DNA from: Prosthecobacter sp.
GTDB taxonomy: Bacteria > Verrucomicrobiota > Verrucomicrobiia > Verrucomicrobiales > Verrucomicrobiaceae
Assembly: GCF_021733925.1 (NCBI RefSeq)
Contig: NZ_JAIPJY010000022.1
Direction: 5' to 3' (one strand)
DNA length: 64,000 nucleotides
A program made the translations under genes and the position numbers. Of the stretch, positions 43,013 to 47,521 are shown piece after piece. Under the pieces are notes generated by a model. The model saw only the letters and a list, made by a program, of their open reading frames with translations, had not been told where the DNA came from and made no database searches. The first letter of the stretch is position 1. Every line of letters starts with the position of its first letter.

Positions 43013-43602
43013 CAGTAGTACAGGATGGCCGCTGCGAGGAGGACGACGCCGTAGGCGATGCCGCCGTAGATGGCGAGATTCCAGCGCTGCGGCTTGGCGA
43101 TGAGGGTGTTCACCCAGTCGCGCATGAGGAAGGGCATGCCGATGAAGAACATGCCGACGATGATCCAGACGTAGGCGAGGATGGGGAGGAGCAGGCGGCT
43201 GGTCTGGGGCTGAAGGAAGGCGGCGGTGAGGACGGGGCCGGCGACGAGGAGCATGAGGGAACCGAGGGCGCGGACGGCGAGAAATTCCTTCACGTAGATG
43301 AGGACGCCGACGTAGCCGGCGGCGACGATCATCATGAACTTGTCGCGCATGTTGTAGAACTCACCCATGTCCATGTTGGCGAGGGCGAATTCGCTCCAGA
43401 GAAAGCCGATGGTGAGGAGGATGAGGCCCCAGACGTAGGTGCGGGGGAAGGCTTTGAGGAAGGCCTGGGTTTTGGCGGTGTTTTTGAGGGCCCAGCCATG
43501 GGAGAGGATGAGGGCCAGGGCGACGACGATGCCGGTGCCCTTGAGCGGTATGCCGCCGGTGGGTGCCAGGTGGTAGAGGTAGTCGTAGAGGTCTGGGAAC
43601 AT
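43012..43602 (-). CDS. Hypothetical membrane protein
   Basis: Hydrophobic ORF, TGATG-type overlap with the GT9 gene; start chosen at ATG 43602. Confidence 0.7.
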   Translation of the reverse strand: MFPDLYDYLYHLAPTGGIPLKGTGIVVALALILSHGWALKNTAKTQAFLKAFPRTYVWGLILLTIGFLWSEFALANMDMGEFYNMRDKFMMIVAAGYVGVLIYVKEFLAVRALGSLMLLVAGPVLTAAFLQPQTSRLLLPILAYVWIIVGMFFIGMPFLMRDWVNTLIAKPQRWNLAIYGGIAYGVVLLAAAILYY

Positions 43603-43689
43603 GCGCGGTGGGCTGGAAAAACGGGTGGCACAGGTGGCGCAGACCCTGCTGGTGCGCAAACGCGTTGTTCTGGATGGGGGGATCCGGAA

Positions 43690-44137
43690 TTGGTTGGCCG
43701 CAAAAGGGCGCAAAAAAAGAGGGGAGAAAAAGGGGAGATCCCGAAGGAGTGGTGGTGTTCGGGCGGGGGCCTGTTGAAGCAGGTGCCACCATTCTTGCTG
43801 TGGGGTAAGCGGAGAGATGGGTGGTGCGCGAGCGGAGAGACAGGATTAACAGGATGGCATGATTAACGGGATTAACGGAGTTGGGTGGCCGCAAAAAGGC
43901 GCAAAAACAGAGGGGAGAAAAAAGGGATTCCTGAAGGGACGGAAGTGTTGCGTGGTGGTGATGGAGTTTGGTCGGGGCCTGATGAAGGAGGTGCTGTGAG
44001 GTGAGCGGGAGGGGTGGGTGGTACGTGCGCAGATAGACAGGATTAACAGGATGGCATGATTAACGGGATTAACGGAGTTGGGTGGCCGCAAAAAAGGCGC
44101 AAAAAAGAGGGAAAAGAAAAAGGGGGATCTGGAAGGG
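43690..44137 (+). repeat. Degenerate tandem repeat, three units, period about 191-197 bp
   Basis: TTGG(T/G)TGGCCGCAAAA..GGCGCAAAAA..GAGGG at 43690, 43881, 44078; near-identical GACAGGATTAACAGGATGGCATGATTAACGGGATTAACGGAG block at 43839 and 44036. Confidence 0.9.
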
Positions 44138-44243
44138 ACGCGGGATTCTGCGGCAGCGAGATCTTTTGCTGCTGTTGATGCGTAAATCTTGGATTGAGGT
44201 TGCCTCGGCGCTGGGCAGGGGCAGTTTGAAGGATCGTTCACGC

Positions 44244-44795
44244 ATGAAAGAAAAAAAAGAAACCCTCCCGGCTTGGTACGTGGTGCATACGCGGCCGAAG
44301 TGCGAGCATATCGCGGCTTCGCTGATGGTGGGGCTGGAGGGGGTGGAGACGTACTGTCCGCGCATTCGGTTTCAGAAGAACACGCGGCGGGGCAAGGTGT
44401 GGTTCGTGGAGGCGCTGTTTCCGAGCTACTTTTTTGCGCGGTTCATTCCGAATGATTCGATGCGGGCGGTGAAGTACTCGCAGAGTGTCATTAAGGTGGT
44501 GGATTTTGGGGGGAATTTGACGTCGGTGCCGGACTCGGCCATCGCGGCGCTGAAGGCGGAGATGAAGGACATCGAAATTTGCGAGGTGGAGGTGGGCGTG
44601 AAGGTGGGGGATACGGTGGAGCTGACGGAGGGGCCGATGCGGGGGATGAAGGGGATTGTGAATGCGATGCTGACGGGCGTGGAGCGTGTGCGGATTCTGC
44701 TGGAGTTTTTGGGACGGGAGAATGCGGTGGAGGTGCCTCTGTCGAAGATATTGACGGAGCATACGCCACGGACAGTGCTTGCGGCGTCGCGGTGA
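44244..44795 (+). CDS. NusG paralog (RfaH/UpxY/LoaP-like antitermination factor)
   Basis: WYVVHTRP, EALFPSYFF, KVVDFG..VPD, VGDTVELTEGPMRG (KOW), RVRILLEFLGR. Confidence 0.9.
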   Translation: MKEKKETLPAWYVVHTRPKCEHIAASLMVGLEGVETYCPRIRFQKNTRRGKVWFVEALFPSYFFARFIPNDSMRAVKYSQSVIKVVDFGGNLTSVPDSAIAALKAEMKDIEICEVEVGVKVGDTVELTEGPMRGMKGIVNAMLTGVERVRILLEFLGRENAVEVPLSKILTEHTPRTVLAASR

Positions 44796-44836
44796 CCCGT
44801 TCTTCGCTAAAGCTTCGAAGGGCAAGCTGCGCTTGG

Positions 44837-44899
44837 GTGCCGCTGTCGAAGATTTTGACGGAGCATCAGCCGCGTGCGGTGATGGGGGCGTCGCGGTGA
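44837..44899 (+). other. Diverged duplicate of the last 21 codons of the NusG paralog
   Basis: VPLSKILTEHQPRAVMGASR* versus VPLSKILTEHTPRTVLAASR* at 44733-44795. Confidence 0.9.
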
Positions 44900-44974
44900 G
44901 GGTGGCCTACGGAACACGCGGAACAGACGGAAAATCAGACGAGGGTTGTTCTATTGTCAGTGCTGCTGAAGAGG

Positions 44975-46200
44975 GAGCCGGATTTGAACCACTGATCCAT
45001 TCTCCGTAGCAAGACTGCGAAGGATGAACTGGACACTGACTGACACTGATCTTGAGTCGGAATGCGGAATGTATTCAGGCTGAAGAGCAGATTTTTAACC
45101 ACTAATCGGACGCTAATAAGGCACTAATCAAGGCATTCAGAAATCCGGAATTTTGGATTGGTTTTTTGGGACTGGGCAGCGGGTGGGGGGCTTTGGTTTC
45201 GGCAAAGGAATGACTGAGTTTGGAGCTTGGGGAGGCGGTAGTTTTGCTGCTGTATTGCATACCAACCCCATCTTTCAGAATCTGTGACCACGGATCACTC
45301 GGATTGACACGGATGACTGAGGCTGAGGCTGACCCGCGCAATGGTTTTGATCCGTGCTGCTCGTGCTATCCGTGGTTCCATCTTCCCTGTTCAGTGAATC
45401 ATTCCACCCTGGCCTCATAACTCAATGCTCCGGGAGATAGAGCCGGATTTGAACCACTGACTGGACACTGACTGACACTGATCCTGAGTCGGAATGCGGA
45501 ATGAATTCAGGGTGATGAGCAGATTTTTAACCACTAATCGGACGCTAATAAGGCACTAATCAAGGCATTCAGAAATCCGGAATTTTGGATTGGTTTTTCG
45601 GGGACTGGGCAGCGGGCGGGGGGGGCTTTGGTTTCGGCAAAGGAATGGGTTGGCAATGGAATGCCTGAGTTGAGAACTTGGGGAGGCGGTTGTTTTGGCG
45701 GGAATTTGCAGCCTGGCCCCTTCTTCTCCTTCCAGAATTTCTGACCACGGATCACTCGGATTGACACGGATGACTGAGTCTGAAGCTGACCCGCTTAATG
45801 GTTTTGATCCGTGCTGCTCGTGCTATCCGTGGCTCCATCTTCCCTGTTCAGTGAGTGCCATTTCATTCTGGCCTCATTACTCAATGCTCCGGGAGATAGA
45901 GCCGGATTTGAACCACTGACTGACACTGATGCTGAGTCGGAGTCTGGGATTTTGGGAATGAATTCAGCGGTTTGAGAATGAGGAAGGCAGGAATTCAGGA
46001 ACCGGATTTCTTGGGAGGGGTTTGGTAAAAGATTTGGGGGTAAAAAGATTTTCCCGAACTTTTGGGTTTCTGAATTTTTTACCGCCCATTTTTTACCGCT
46101 TTATCTGGGGATCGAAGGACCACCCCTGTATAGATGAGCCGGATTTTAACGGCTGATCCATTCTCCGTCGCAAGACTGCGAAGGATGAATTGGACGCTGA
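44975..46200 (+). repeat. About 460-bp tandem repeat (2 full units plus 2 partial starts) built from short motif clusters
   Basis: GAGCCGGATTT(G/T)AAC at 44975, 45440, 45899, 46136; units 1 and 2 nearly identical apart from variable patches. Confidence 0.92.
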
Positions 46201-46263
46201 GATGATGCTGATTCAGAATTGGAATCTGGGCGGTGAACGACGGGGATGAGAGGGAAAAGCAGG

Positions 46264-46755
46264 TCAGGAAATTTCGCCGGAGGCTTTCAAGACGATGTTG
46301 CGGAGAGAGGGGCTGATCCAGAAGTGGGCCTCCTGCTCCAGGCGGTCGAGGAGCGGAGCGACTGCGGGAATGAGGGACTGTTCTTTGGCATCTCGAAGAA
46401 CTCCCAGAAGGCCTATCGTTCGAAGTCCAAGGGAAGACGCAGCGGCGCGGCCAGCCTGCTCGTCCATGAGGACGGCATCGGCCTGTCTTTCGACGGCGAG
46501 AGAGAGGGCGGCGACCTCTCCGGCATCCAACCTCGAGGAGGCCGTCAGCGCGGGCAGCAGTTGGAGTGGTGCTGCCTTTTCGATGAAGTGGGGGAAAGCC
46601 AGTCCCTGAAACCGTGCATCCTCTGCAGCGAGCCGCTGAAACTCCACGACGACCATGGTGGGAGCCAGGATCCTTCCATACAAAAGCCGCAGCAGCTCCT
46701 GCTGCCCGATGAGGCAGAGGTTGAGGACGACTGAGGTATCGGTGACGACGGTCAC
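46264..46755 (-). CDS. DUF3368 family PIN-domain protein (putative toxin)
   Basis: VVTDTSVVL, LDAGEVAAL, LMDEQAGR..GLRTIGLLGVL..AK; GTGA overlap with the upstream gene. Confidence 0.85.
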   Translation of the reverse strand: MTVVTDTSVVLNLCLIGQQELLRLLYGRILAPTMVVVEFQRLAAEDARFQGLAFPHFIEKAAPLQLLPALTASSRLDAGEVAALSLAVERQADAVLMDEQAGRAAASSLGLRTIGLLGVLRDAKEQSLIPAVAPLLDRLEQEAHFWISPSLRNIVLKASGEIS

Positions 46756-46991
46756 AGGGTGCGCAGGGCGCGAAGTGATTCCAAATCCTGCGCCCAACGT
46801 TCCTCATCATAAGAAGGGATGTGTCGAGCGAAGAGAGTCTGGTCGAAGGCATGACGGTCCATGCCAGCCATGCGGGCAGCCACGCCCCGTGAGACATGAC
46901 CTGCCGCATAAGCGCCGCAGGCGAGGTCGAGCAAGATTTCGGCCTCGCCCATCTCGGTGAGCGCGGGGTCATCTGGAAGCGTGATGGTCAT
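46752..46991 (-). CDS. UPF0175 family protein (putative antitoxin)
   Basis: 79 aa; LDLA..Y..GHVSRGVAARMAGMDR..F..L..DL. Confidence 0.8.
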   Translation of the reverse strand: MTITLPDDPALTEMGEAEILLDLACGAYAAGHVSRGVAARMAGMDRHAFDQTLFARHIPSYDEERWAQDLESLRALRTL

Positions 46992-47120
46992 GGATTGAGG
47001 ATAATGGAAAAGCAGGCGGAGGCAAGGCAACGTCTGCGGGGCAGGGCGTCGTTCAGGTGGGAATTGCAGGGTGAAGGGCAAGCTGCGCTTGGGGACCCAT
47101 TCTTCGCTAAAGCTACGAAG

Positions 47121-47347
47121 CACCTGAACTCAATGCGGCTGGATTGTTTAACGGAGGATACCCAGATGGAGTTTATTTGGCAGCCGTTTGCACGAACTAA
47201 GCTTCCCAGATTCCGGCTAAAGCCGGGACTACAAAACGTGTTCTGGCTGGTTTCAGATTTGGGGCGATGCGGAGCTTCCGGAACGGGCTAAAGCCCGAAC
47301 TACGTACTCAGAGGAGCCGGAAAAGTGCGAGGATGTTATTCGGGAGG
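47121..47347 (+). repeat. About 220-bp dispersed repeat with two REP palindromes; second copy at about 62487-62701
   Basis: CGAACTAAG..CCAGATTCCGGCTAAAGCCGG..CTTCCGGAACGGGCTAAAGCCCGAACTACGTACTCAGA..TTATTCGGGAG in both copies. Confidence 0.88.
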
Positions 47348-47521
47348 GCAAGAGCCCTTGGTGCGGGGCTGGCGGTGTGATCGCGGTGAAAAAGCGCCCG
47401 GACAGCTCCTGATACCGGACTGCGCTAGTCGTGGGTGTTTGCCATACGCGCAGAGACGGGTGGGCTGTCGCCACACCCATCCTACGTCCGGACGGGCACG
47501 TTAGCTGTTTGTCGCTGATTT

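What the first reader, a model, noticed from the sequence alone, without database searches (positions are those of the whole stretch)
44975..46200. 460-bp tandem units made of 'empty' paired inverted motifs
Units start at 44975, 45440, 45899 and 46136. Each full unit strings together distinct short clusters: ACACTGAC, CCACTAATCGGACGCTAATAAGGCACTAAT, CGGAATG x2, GGCAAAGGAAT, and CCACGGATCACTCGGATTGACACGGAT (45288-45314) facing ATCCGTGCTGCTCGTGCTATCCGTGG (45350-45375) across only 35 bp. A further pair, GGTAAAA(A)GAT x2 versus ATTTTTTACC x2, lies at 46024-46097. From memory, and unverified here, such doublet inverted motifs flank GxxExxY nuclease-like genes, and heptamer arrays flank four-helix-bundle genes, in PVC and Bacteroidota genomes. 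Here they would be gene-less scars or landing pads. Units 1 and 4 share a 33-bp GTAG-containing hairpin insert missing from units 2 and 3.
Basis: partly seen in the sequence, partly recalled or inferred. Interest (0 to 1): 0.7.

Follow-up and report, generated by a model that had tools for sequence, protein, structure and literature searches.

The report
Empty arms of small nuclease cassettes
This 1.3-kb gene-free stretch is a tandemly duplicated pile of the short repeat-built "arms" that elsewhere in the genome bracket tiny nuclease (GxxExxY) or four-helix-bundle genes, so it shows the gene-less side of a widespread and apparently undescribed kind of small mobile cassette.

Summary
In detail: coordinates, motifs and tandem units (about 432-459 bp) are as stated. 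One correction is needed. Only two motif kinds (CACGGAT, GGTAAAA) form inverted pairs. The other kinds are solo arms, all on the + strand. A second array lies at 43685-44124.

Each motif cluster is a 25-32-nt arm. Most arms have an outer end shared between kinds (CCGGATTTGAACCAC) followed by 2-3 copies of a kind-specific heptamer every 9-11 bp.

In this Prosthecobacter-like genome:
- Seven of the nine arm kinds have one copy next to an intact gene: six next to a GxxExxY (PD-(D/E)XK nuclease) gene, one next to a four-helix-bundle gene.
- Each kind also has a few to about 25 gene-less copies, as tight palindromes, solo arms or 100-bp tandem arrays.

Across the phylum, homologues of three of these genes carry the same architecture. 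The heptamer changes between elements but agrees among the copies within one element.

Orthologous sites in the genus show no element, a full element, a solo arm or an empty palindrome. The window's locus has different module content in close relatives.

Best reading: these are gene-less derivatives (MITE/REPIN-like copies and deletion scars) of small IVS-type cassettes, amplified by unequal recombination. Mobilisation by the nuclease is inferred, not shown.

The parts
43685..44124 (+). Upstream sister array: three units of about 195 bp. Each carries a CGCAAAA x2 arm (43699, 43890, 44087). Two carry a GATTAAC x3 arm (43844-43876, 44041-44073).
   Evidence: (D3, D4). The same arm kinds flank the GxxExxY genes at G000:C23:100264-100710 and C123:6087-6494.
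44909..44934 (+). Solo ACGGAAC/GCGGAAC/ACGGAAA arm, a relative of the CACGGAA kind.
   Evidence: A near-identical copy lies at C78:688-712.
44975..45439 (+). Tandem unit 1 (full, 465 bp).
45440..45898 (+). Tandem unit 2 (full, 459 bp).
45899..46135 (+). Unit 3, a short variant: CACTGA arm followed by the GGTAAAA palindrome.
   Evidence: This unit type is triplicated in relative G001.
46136..46262 (+). Unit 4: only the unit start, with a degenerate CACTGA-type arm (CGCTGA, no CACTGA) that carries the 33-nt insert.
   Evidence: (D8).
44986..45050 (+). CACTGA x3 arm (outer end GAACCAC), interrupted by the 33-nt hairpin insert at 44996-45028. Intact copies lie at 45451-45482 and 45910-45930.
   Evidence: The inverse arm lies right after the GxxExxY gene at C65:42429-42842.
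45058..45071 (+). CGGAATG x2 contiguous heptamers (also at 45490-45503).
   Evidence: The same heptamer array, in both orientations, flanks the four-helix-bundle gene at C59:2482-2847.
45096..45128 (+). CACTAAT/CGCTAAT x3 arm (also at 45528-45560).
   Evidence: A palindrome of this arm kind abuts the C65 GxxExxY gene. Empty palindromes lie at C65:37973-38052 and C64:44684-44764.
45637..45662 (+). GCAAAGGAAT / GCAATGGAAT arm. Unit 1 keeps one copy at 45202-45211.
   Evidence: The same arm lies 7 bp from the GxxExxY-fusion gene at C6:16927-17718.
45285..45378 (.). Empty CACGGAT palindrome: left arm of 3 heptamers, 35-bp loop, right arm. The second copy is at 45742-45835.
   Evidence: The same unit forms tandem arrays of about 100 bp on C33 (with a GxxExxY gene inside), C55 and C60.
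46024..46097 (.). Empty GGTAAAA palindrome (2 + 2 repeats).
   Evidence: fold z = -3.6. No gene-bearing copy was found in this genome.
44996..45028 (+). 33-nt hairpin inserted into the CACTGA arm (second copy at 46157-46189).
   Evidence: A third copy sits in the same arm kind at C97:176701-176734. Copies of 33-41 nt (94-100% identical) lie at unlinked sites in several relatives.

Best explanation
The region is a gene-less, fast-evolving pile of terminal arms from small cassette elements. The full forms of these elements carry one small gene between two inverted arms. That gene is either a roughly 125-aa GxxExxY nuclease with a RecB/Cas4-like PD-(D/E)XK fold, or a four-helix-bundle protein.

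An arm of the GxxExxY type has an outer end shared by several kinds (CCGGATTT(T)GAACCAC), followed by 2-3 copies of an element-specific heptamer spaced one helical turn apart.

Shown here:
- Seven of the nine arm kinds in the window have a copy next to an intact gene elsewhere in the genome.
- Each arm kind has one gene-linked copy and several to many gene-less ones.
- All heptamer copies within one element agree, while elements differ from one another.
- Elements, empty palindromes and solo arms are present or absent at orthologous sites.

Inferred:
- The encoded protein recognises its own heptamers, and it moves or copies the cassette and, in trans, the gene-less palindromes. This would resemble a transposase acting on MITEs, or a RAYT acting on REPINs.
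- Solo arms are deletion scars.
- Several kinds landed next to or inside each other in this convergent intergenic spacer. Unequal recombination between same-orientation arms then duplicated the composite into units of about 450 bp.
- The array itself probably has no host function.
For: - Arm-to-gene match within the genome.
- Flank inverted repeats exceed the 99th percentile of random intervals at 12 of 17 loci.
- Census: 8-27 clusters per kind against 0-4 in shuffles for the eight specific patterns, with one gene-linked locus per kind. Empty palindromes are listed.
- All 19 loci holding relatives (50-94% identical) of the C33 protein, from Prosthecobacter, Opitutaceae, Akkermansiaceae, Limisphaerales and one Anaerolineales record, show CAC(G/A)(G/A)AT-type heptamers in their flanks, in different genomic contexts. 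An automated search scored a clean inverted arm pair in 13 of the 18 it could analyse.
- 22 loci of the C47 clade show 3+3 heptamers that differ between loci (CACGAAA, CACAGAA, CGCGAAT, CGCAGAT and others) but agree within each locus.
- Four-helix-bundle homologues are flanked by heptamer arrays across the phylum.
- Arms are in-register inverted repeats: identity 0.85 against 0.59 when shifted by one period.
- In 23 CACGGAT units the heptamers are invariant, spacers and loops vary freely, and no pair shows a compensatory change. This points to sequence-specific recognition rather than hairpin stability.
- The protein model has pLDDT 94. Its best structural matches are Cas4, lambda exonuclease and RecE. 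D, K and QxxxY are nearly invariant.
- Presence/absence at orthologous sites.
- The window's locus has different module content in G001 and G002.
- Genomes with the C47-type gene hold more CACGGAA arms, a mean of about 18 against about 4.
Against: - No transposition, excision or binding has been shown.
- No target-site duplication could be defined.
- G002 and G345 hold 21-24 CACGGAA arms, but no cognate gene was found there.
- Two unrelated protein families share the architecture. The arms might therefore serve something other than the encoded protein.
- A 125-aa nuclease core is not a known transposase.
- Most arms in the window are solo and could not move as pairs.
- The position-specific match of left and right arms is also what pairing in RNA or single-stranded DNA would give.
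- Heptamer labels cluster only modestly on the protein tree: 20 changes against 24-28 in the ten shuffles inspected.
Confidence: 0.55

Rival explanations
1. RNA-level element, like the intervening sequences (IVS) of 23S rRNA. The two arms pair in the transcript and RNase III cuts the stem. The arms exist to excise or regulate the small gene's mRNA. Gene-less palindromes would act as REP-like RNA hairpins (stabilisers or terminators) kept by the host. Spread would occur by ordinary recombination.
For: - The Coxiella IVS carries an ORF annotated as hypothetical ribosomal S23 protein (S23p) between 28-bp terminal inverted repeats that RNase III cleaves (PMC4990558). From my own knowledge, not tested here, S23p belongs to the four-helix-bundle family (Pfam PF05635 / TIGR02436).
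- Arms are in-register inverted repeats.
- Compact elements sit in the sense orientation inside operons with no room for a promoter. The ribosome-binding site merges with the innermost heptamer, so a stem would mask it.
- Some palindromes fold very well, for example C118 with z = -9.7.
Against: - This reading does not explain the threefold heptamer repetition within an arm, or why each element has its own heptamer.
- CACGGAT units have unpaired spacers, no compensatory changes and only weak folds (z = -1.6 to -1.8).
- Most arms in the window have no partner to pair with.
- No terminator-like sites are found.
- Presence/absence patterns still need a DNA-level mobility mechanism.
Confidence: 0.17
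2. Landing pads. Empty left-loop-right units are the recognition and cleavage sites of the cognate nuclease, which acts as a homing endonuclease. The gene is copied into an empty unit by break repair, and arrays are reservoirs of target sites.
For: - The C33 gene lies inside an array of more than 10 empty units.
- Genes in relatives sit next to empty units.
- In most loci the gene lies exactly between a left and a right arm, where an empty unit has its loop.
- G004 and G341 carry empty units on both sides of the gene.
Against: - At the C47 site, 15 of the 22 genomes whose spacer was recovered have no arm at all, rather than an empty pad.
- In Prosthecobacter the C33-type gene lies between units, not inside one.
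- Empty palindromes themselves appear and disappear at otherwise arm-free sites, so the pads must spread by another route.
- Most arms in the window are solo.
Confidence: 0.15
3. Host-serving protein-binding array. The periodic heptamers would be operator, iteron or nucleoid-organising sites kept for a chromosomal function, for example control of the adjacent NusG paralogue.
For: - The 9-11-bp periodicity puts the sites on one face of the helix.
- Arrays flank the NusG-paralogue gene on both sides, and an array persists at this locus in G001 and G002.
Against: - Module content at the locus is not conserved between genomes whose flanks are about 92% identical.
- The same arms occur at dozens of unrelated intergenic sites and at contig ends.
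- No promoter-like sites are found.
- Nine different heptamer kinds in one spacer fit no single regulator.
Confidence: 0.05

Closest known systems
REP / REPIN - RAYT systems and BIME arrays (PMC3116915, PMC3337134)
   Same: - One protein gene is flanked by its own short palindromic repeat, alongside a population of gene-less copies of that repeat in intergenic spacers.
- Several such systems, each with its own repeat, coexist in one genome.
- Palindromic units also occur as tandem arrays.
   Different: - The flanked gene is a PD-(D/E)XK nuclease (or a four-helix-bundle protein), not a Y1/HUH transposase.
- The genome's RAYT-like genes carry other repeats.
- Arms are built from 2-3 spaced heptamers plus an AACCAC end, not a GTAG/CGTC-tagged G+C hairpin.
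23S rRNA intervening sequences with an S23p ORF (Coxiella, Leptospira; PMC4990558)
   Same: - A small ORF (S23p, by my knowledge a four-helix-bundle family member) lies between terminal inverted repeats of about 28 bp.
- Distribution is sporadic and horizontally transferred.
- It has long been suspected to be a mobile element whose ORF aids mobility.
   Different: - Here the elements lie in intergenic spacers and operons, not in rRNA.
- Arms are heptamer arrays specific to each element.
- A second gene family (GxxExxY) uses the same layout.
- Gene-less copies and arrays are abundant.
MITEs and their parent transposons with subterminal repeats
   Same: - Terminal inverted repeats with repeated internal binding-site-like motifs.
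- Short non-coding derivatives outnumber the coding parent.
- Nested insertions and solo ends occur.
   Different: - No recognised transposase is present.
- No target-site duplication could be found.
- The parent is only about 0.5 kb and has no promoter of its own.

Membership tests
GxxExxY / four-helix-bundle inverted-arm cassette | Arms of the same sequence kind as those bracketing an intact family gene | tested here: met
   Seven of the nine arm kinds in 43685-46250 have a copy at a gene in G000: C33, C65 (two kinds), C23, C123, C6 and C59. The ACGGAAC and GGTAAAA kinds have no gene-linked copy in G000.
GxxExxY / four-helix-bundle inverted-arm cassette | A TIGR04256 or TIGR02436 gene lies between the arms | tested here: not met
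   There is no significant tblastn or HMM hit in 43600-46300. The loops are 35 bp or less. The window therefore holds derivatives, not cassettes.
GxxExxY / four-helix-bundle inverted-arm cassette | Left and right arm in inverted orientation | tested here: inconclusive
   Met for CACGGAT (two copies) and GGTAAAA. The other kinds are solo + strand arms.
REP/REPIN-RAYT | The cognate Y1 (RAYT) transposase gene is flanked by the same repeat | tested here: not met
   21 Y1_Tnp matches were found in G000. The six best are flanked by other sequences, several of them palindromes of other kinds, and none by these arms.
REP/REPIN-RAYT | Short dispersed extragenic palindromes, often as inverted doublets | tested here: met
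   Tight palindromes lie at C118, C37, C65, C64, C66, C111, C12 and C73.
MITE | Terminal inverted repeats plus a target-site duplication | tested here: inconclusive
   Inverted repeats are clear. The boundaries at the polymorphic sites are too diverged to show or exclude a duplication.
MITE | Insertion polymorphism between related genomes | tested here: met
   The CACTAAT palindrome is present in G000 and G014 and absent from G012, G002 and G006 at one site. The C47 site shows four states among the 22 genomes whose spacer was recovered.
23S rRNA intervening sequence | Located in helix 9, 25 or 45 of the 23S rRNA gene and excised by RNase III | tested here: not met
   The region lies between a NusG-paralogue gene and a toxin-antitoxin pair, with no rRNA match. 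RNase III processing cannot be tested here.
CRISPR array | Constant repeats alternating with unique spacers | tested here: not met
   Whole units of 99-459 bp repeat, 'spacers' included.
Integron attC array | Adjacent integron integrase and attC core sites | not tested
   No integrase search was made. The arm ends (GTGGTT) were not compared with attC cores.

The most novel reading that the evidence does not exclude
GxxExxY proteins are minimal nucleases of about 125 aa, each tuned to its own heptamer. They mobilise their own cassette and its gene-less palindromes. This would be a new class of prokaryotic mobile element, running in parallel with a four-helix-bundle version, and the classical ORF-bearing 23S rRNA intervening sequences would be a special case of it. 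The many natural protein-heptamer pairs would then amount to a readable recognition code.
Probability: 0.3. Interest if true: 0.85.

Novelty: new variant of a known kind. Interest (0 to 1): 0.66.

Why it matters
GxxExxY (TIGR04256 / PF13366) and four-helix-bundle (TIGR02436) genes are very common small genes of unknown role. About a third of 300 sampled genomes of this phylum hold a close relative of a single paralogue of each.

The origin and mobility of ORF-bearing rRNA intervening sequences has been open since 1993 (discussion in PMC4990558).

The pattern found here gives both questions a concrete, testable model. That pattern is one gene, its own heptamer arms, concerted change of all heptamer copies, many gene-less copies, and site polymorphism within a genus.

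It also explains a practical nuisance. Contigs of these genomes break at such arrays (C33, C60, C115, C97).

I found no paper describing this architecture in six full-text searches. That covers only the searchable library and does not prove the architecture is new.

Tried and rejected
- Rfam (E up to 1) gave only a chance miRNA hit. There are no tRNAs and no promoter or terminator consensus in the array.
- The search for related loci with the alignment of six paralogues failed because no stretch was conserved enough. A single protein was used instead.
- An exact 7-mer doublet-pair scan found about 30 loci but missed imperfect arms. Kind-specific patterns replaced it. The CACTGA and ACGGAAC patterns were too loose (shuffled 17 and 9) and were kept only at 24 nt or longer.
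- A PDB search by sequence gave nothing useful. A fold search was needed.
- Target-site duplications could not be defined.
- The gene-versus-arm-number correlation across the genus is positive but imperfect, and the genomes are not independent.
- Heptamer labels on the protein tree showed 20 changes against 24-28 in the ten shuffles inspected, which is only a modest signal.
- Covariation in the CACGGAT hairpin: no pair varies on both sides, so the test is silent on pairing. The spacers are plainly unpaired.
- Rejected readings: CRISPR-like array, RAYT REPs, remnants of a decayed gene in the window, and assembly artefact. The last is excluded because the array lies inside a 107-kb contig and an array sits at the same locus in relatives.

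Full report
**1. Observation**

The region 44900-46262 is intergenic. On one side lies a NusG-paralogue gene (ATG 44245, stop 44795, + strand; Pfam NusG). On the other lies a DUF3368 (PIN-like) / UPF0175 toxin-antitoxin pair on the - strand (46264-47123).

Every coordinate and string in the finding was read back correctly. The long direct repeats are:
- 45028-45170 vs 45460-45602, 97% identical.
- 45272-45397 vs 45729-45854, 94% identical.
- 44975-45039 vs 46136-46200, 91% identical.

These give units 432-459 bp apart. Units 3 and 4 are partial. The 33-nt insert is in units 1 and 4 only.

A motif map shows that only CACGGAT (two copies) and GGTAAAA (one copy) are inverted pairs. The CACTGA, CGGAATG, CACTAAT, GCAAAGGAAT and ACGGAAC clusters are unpaired and all on the + strand.

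A sister array of three units of about 195 bp, with CGCAAAA and GATTAAC clusters, lies upstream of the NusG paralogue at 43685-44124.

**2. What the clusters are**

BLAST of the region against the window's own 7.3-Mb genome showed two things.
- The CACGGAT pair recurs as tandem arrays of about 100 bp on C33 (more than 10 units), C55 (7 units) and C60.
- Composite strings like the window's recur on C97, C115 and C66, often at contig ends.

Inside the C33 array sits a 125-aa gene that matches TIGR04256 (GxxExxY). The genome has 8 GxxExxY loci and 9 four-helix-bundle (TIGR02436) genes.

Their flanks show that nearly every gene lies between inverted clusters of a short repeat, and each gene has its own repeat:
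- C33: CACGGAT.
- C65: a CACTAAT palindrome upstream and a CACTGA arm downstream.
- C47: CACGGAA/CACAGAA.
- C23: CGCAAAA.
- C123: CAGGATTAAC.
- C6: GCAAAGGAAT.
- C88: a TTTTACACCGCAGAG-type arm.
- Four-helix-bundle gene C59: CGGAATG. The other four-helix-bundle genes have other 7-8-mers.

Seven of the nine arm kinds in the window therefore have a copy next to one gene elsewhere. No gene-linked copy was found in this genome for GGTAAAA or for the ACGGAAC variant.

At 12 of the 17 loci, the best 26-nt inverted repeat between the flanks exceeds the 99th percentile of 300 random intervals.

**3. Census**

Kind-specific patterns find 8-27 clusters per kind, against 0-4 in shuffled sequence for the eight specific patterns. 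The CACTGA and ACGGAAC patterns were too loose to count and were kept only at 24 nt or longer.

For each kind, only one locus carries a gene. The rest are of three sorts:
- Tight palindromes, for example C118:29948-30015, C37:969-1036, C65:37973-38052, C64:44684-44764, C66:13791-13936 and C111:25813-25931.
- Solo arms.
- Arrays.

**4. Other genomes**

The names of the nearest records place the genome in or near Prosthecobacter.

- *C33 clade.* All 19 loci found with relatives of the C33 protein (50-94% identical) show CAC(G/A)(G/A)AT-type heptamers in their flanks. They come from Prosthecobacter, Opitutaceae, Akkermansiaceae, Limisphaerales and one Anaerolineales record. They sit in unrelated contexts, including type I restriction-modification operons and between Fe-S oxidoreductase-like genes. 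An automated search scored a clean inverted arm pair in 13 of the 18 loci it could analyse.
- *C47 clade.* 99 of 301 sampled genomes of the phylum hold a close relative of the C47 protein. In 22 loci examined, three heptamers precede the gene and three inverted ones follow it. The heptamer differs between loci (CACGAAA, CACGGAA, CACAGAA, CACGAAT, CGCGAAT, CGCAGAT), but the copies within a locus agree.
- *Shared site.* Five genomes of one family carry the element at the same site, between an ABC-transporter ATPase gene and its permease gene, with different heptamers (L056, L061, L066, L070, L072). The copies therefore change in concert.
- *Four-helix-bundle genes.* Homologues of the C59 protein are flanked by heptamer arrays across the phylum, again element-specific.

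**5. Anatomy of an arm**

- Arms of the CAC-type kinds share an outer end CCGGA(A)TTT(T)GAACCAC, with its inverse on the other side. The heptamers follow at a spacing of 9-11 bp.
- Left and right arms match in register: identity 0.85 against 0.59 when one arm is shifted by a period (Wilcoxon p = 1e-7). One caveat applies: the window was chosen for the best in-register match. The arms are thus true inverted repeats and not merely runs of one heptamer.
- In 23 CACGGAT units the heptamers are invariant. Spacers and loops vary freely and do not pair. None of 18 predicted pairs shows a compensatory change.
- The window's two CACGGAT units fold only slightly better than shuffles (z = -1.6 and -1.8). 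The GGTAAAA unit gives z = -3.6 and a CACGGAA palindrome gives z = -9.7.
- In compact elements the arm starts right after the upstream gene's stop codon. The innermost heptamer runs into a GAAAGG(A/G)G ribosome-binding site a few bases before the ATG. There is no room for a promoter, and the gene is co-oriented with the host operon.

**6. The protein**

An AlphaFold model of the C47 protein, built from a 47-sequence alignment, has mean pLDDT 94.4. Foldseek's best PDB matches are Cas4 SSO0001, lambda exonuclease, RecE and the AddA/AdnA nuclease domains, with Hjc lower in the list. D71, K83 and Q95-x3-Y99 are nearly invariant. These correspond to the catalytic Asp and Lys and to the QxxxY motif of RecB-family nucleases (established knowledge).

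**7. Mobility**

- *C65 site.* The CACTAAT palindrome is present in G000 and G014. G012 has about 15 bp there with no element. G002 and G006 hold an unrelated palindrome.
- *C118 site.* G000 and G002 have the CACGGAA palindrome. G001, G014, G006 and G012 have other content.
- *C47 site.* The spacer was recovered from 22 of the genus genomes:
  - 11 genomes have a short spacer with no arm.
  - G000 and G330 have arm-gene-arm.
  - G004 and G341 have palindrome-gene-palindrome.
  - G001, G014 and G325 have a solo arm at the position of the full element's arm but no gene. This is scar-like.
  - G345, G006, G010 and G333 have another small gene and no arm.
- *The window's own locus.* It is an array in G001 and G002 too, but with different content. 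G001 has three tandem GGTAAAA-type units of about 240 bp and no CACGGAT pair, although the flanking genes are about 92% identical.
- *Gene versus arm number.* Genomes holding an orthologue of the C47 gene at 83% identity or more have 6-31 CACGGAA-type arms. The other 35 average about 4. G002 and G345 have 21-24 arms with no gene found.

**8. Mechanism**

The facts shown are:
- Arm kinds match genes.
- Each kind has one gene-linked locus and many gene-less copies.
- Heptamers evolve in concert within an element.
- Sites are polymorphic between related genomes.
- The array turns over quickly.

From these I infer the following.
- The specificity determinant is encoded in the element, most simply in the protein.
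- The protein binds the periodic heptamers on duplex DNA or on a stem.
- It catalyses or triggers copying of the cassette and of gene-less palindromes.
- Solo arms are deletion products.
- The window's 450-bp periodicity arose by unequal recombination between same-orientation arms after several kinds had accumulated in one convergent spacer.

Two other readings remain open and are partly compatible with this one. The first is an RNA-level role of the arms, with an IVS-like stem cut by RNase III. The second is homing into empty units. They are listed as rivals. A host regulatory role is unlikely.

**9. Comparison with known systems**

The system works most like REPIN-RAYT and like MITEs with their parent transposons. 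It is built like the ORF-bearing 23S rRNA intervening sequences.

It is not a member of REP/RAYT. The genome's RAYT-like genes carry other repeats, and the flanked protein is a PD-(D/E)XK nuclease.

It is also not an IVS in the strict sense, because it is not in rRNA.

**10. Limits**

- All mechanism steps are inference.
- The assembly is a draft that breaks in these arrays, so counts are lower bounds.
- Relatives are not independent samples.
- The literature check covers only the searchable library.

Noticed in passing
window 44732-44899: The last 64 nt of the NusG-paralogue gene occur twice (44732-44795 and 44836-44899, 83% identical). The two copies are separated by a 34-nt REP-like element (44796-44829, CCCGTTCTTCGCTAAAGCTTCGAAGGGC...) that has 13 copies in the genome. 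Relative G001 has only the second type of gene end.
   Followed up: partly
window 47096-47352: A dispersed repeat of about 250 bp containing GGCTAAAGCC-type hairpins. It has at least 15 copies in this genome and many in relatives. It is unrelated to the heptamer arms.
   Followed up: no
G000:C47:99540-99650 (L050): The arm next to the downstream host gene lies inside that gene's predicted start region. The signal peptide would read MKKLSLILPCILCIPWLS..., encoded through the arm. Relatives without the element have a different N-terminus.
   Followed up: partly
G000:C88:1785-2603 and C6:16927-17718: C88 has two GxxExxY domains fused in one 272-aa ORF. C6 has a GxxExxY domain with a C-terminal extension of about 140 aa. 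Both still have arm-like flanks.
   Followed up: no
G000 contigs C33, C60, C115 (starts) and C97 (end); also C78, C86: Contigs end inside these arrays. The assembler breaks there, so copy numbers are underestimated.
   Followed up: no
G000:C104:13525-13869, C80:174748-175083, C50:49890-50231, C98:51884-52219: Several RAYT-like (Y1_Tnp) genes are each flanked by their own G+C-rich palindromes. Classical REP-RAYT systems therefore coexist with the heptamer-arm system.
   Followed up: partly
L056, L061, L066, L070, L072 and L125, L129, L143, L145, L147: Both GxxExxY and four-helix-bundle cassettes recur in the spacer between an ABC-transporter ATPase gene and its FtsX-like permease gene in one family of the phylum. 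This is either an old vertical insertion or a preferred site.
   Followed up: no
L089 (G001:C4), orthologue of the C118 site: G001 carries two tandem units of about 190 bp of yet another inverted motif pair (CAGAAAAAT-type) where G000 has a CACGGAA palindrome.
   Followed up: no
window 44996-45028 and 46157-46189: The 33-nt hairpin inserted in the CACTGA arm has only 3 copies in this genome, all in that arm kind. Copies of 33-41 nt, 94-100% identical, lie at unlinked sites in several relatives (G012, G007, G008).
   Followed up: partly
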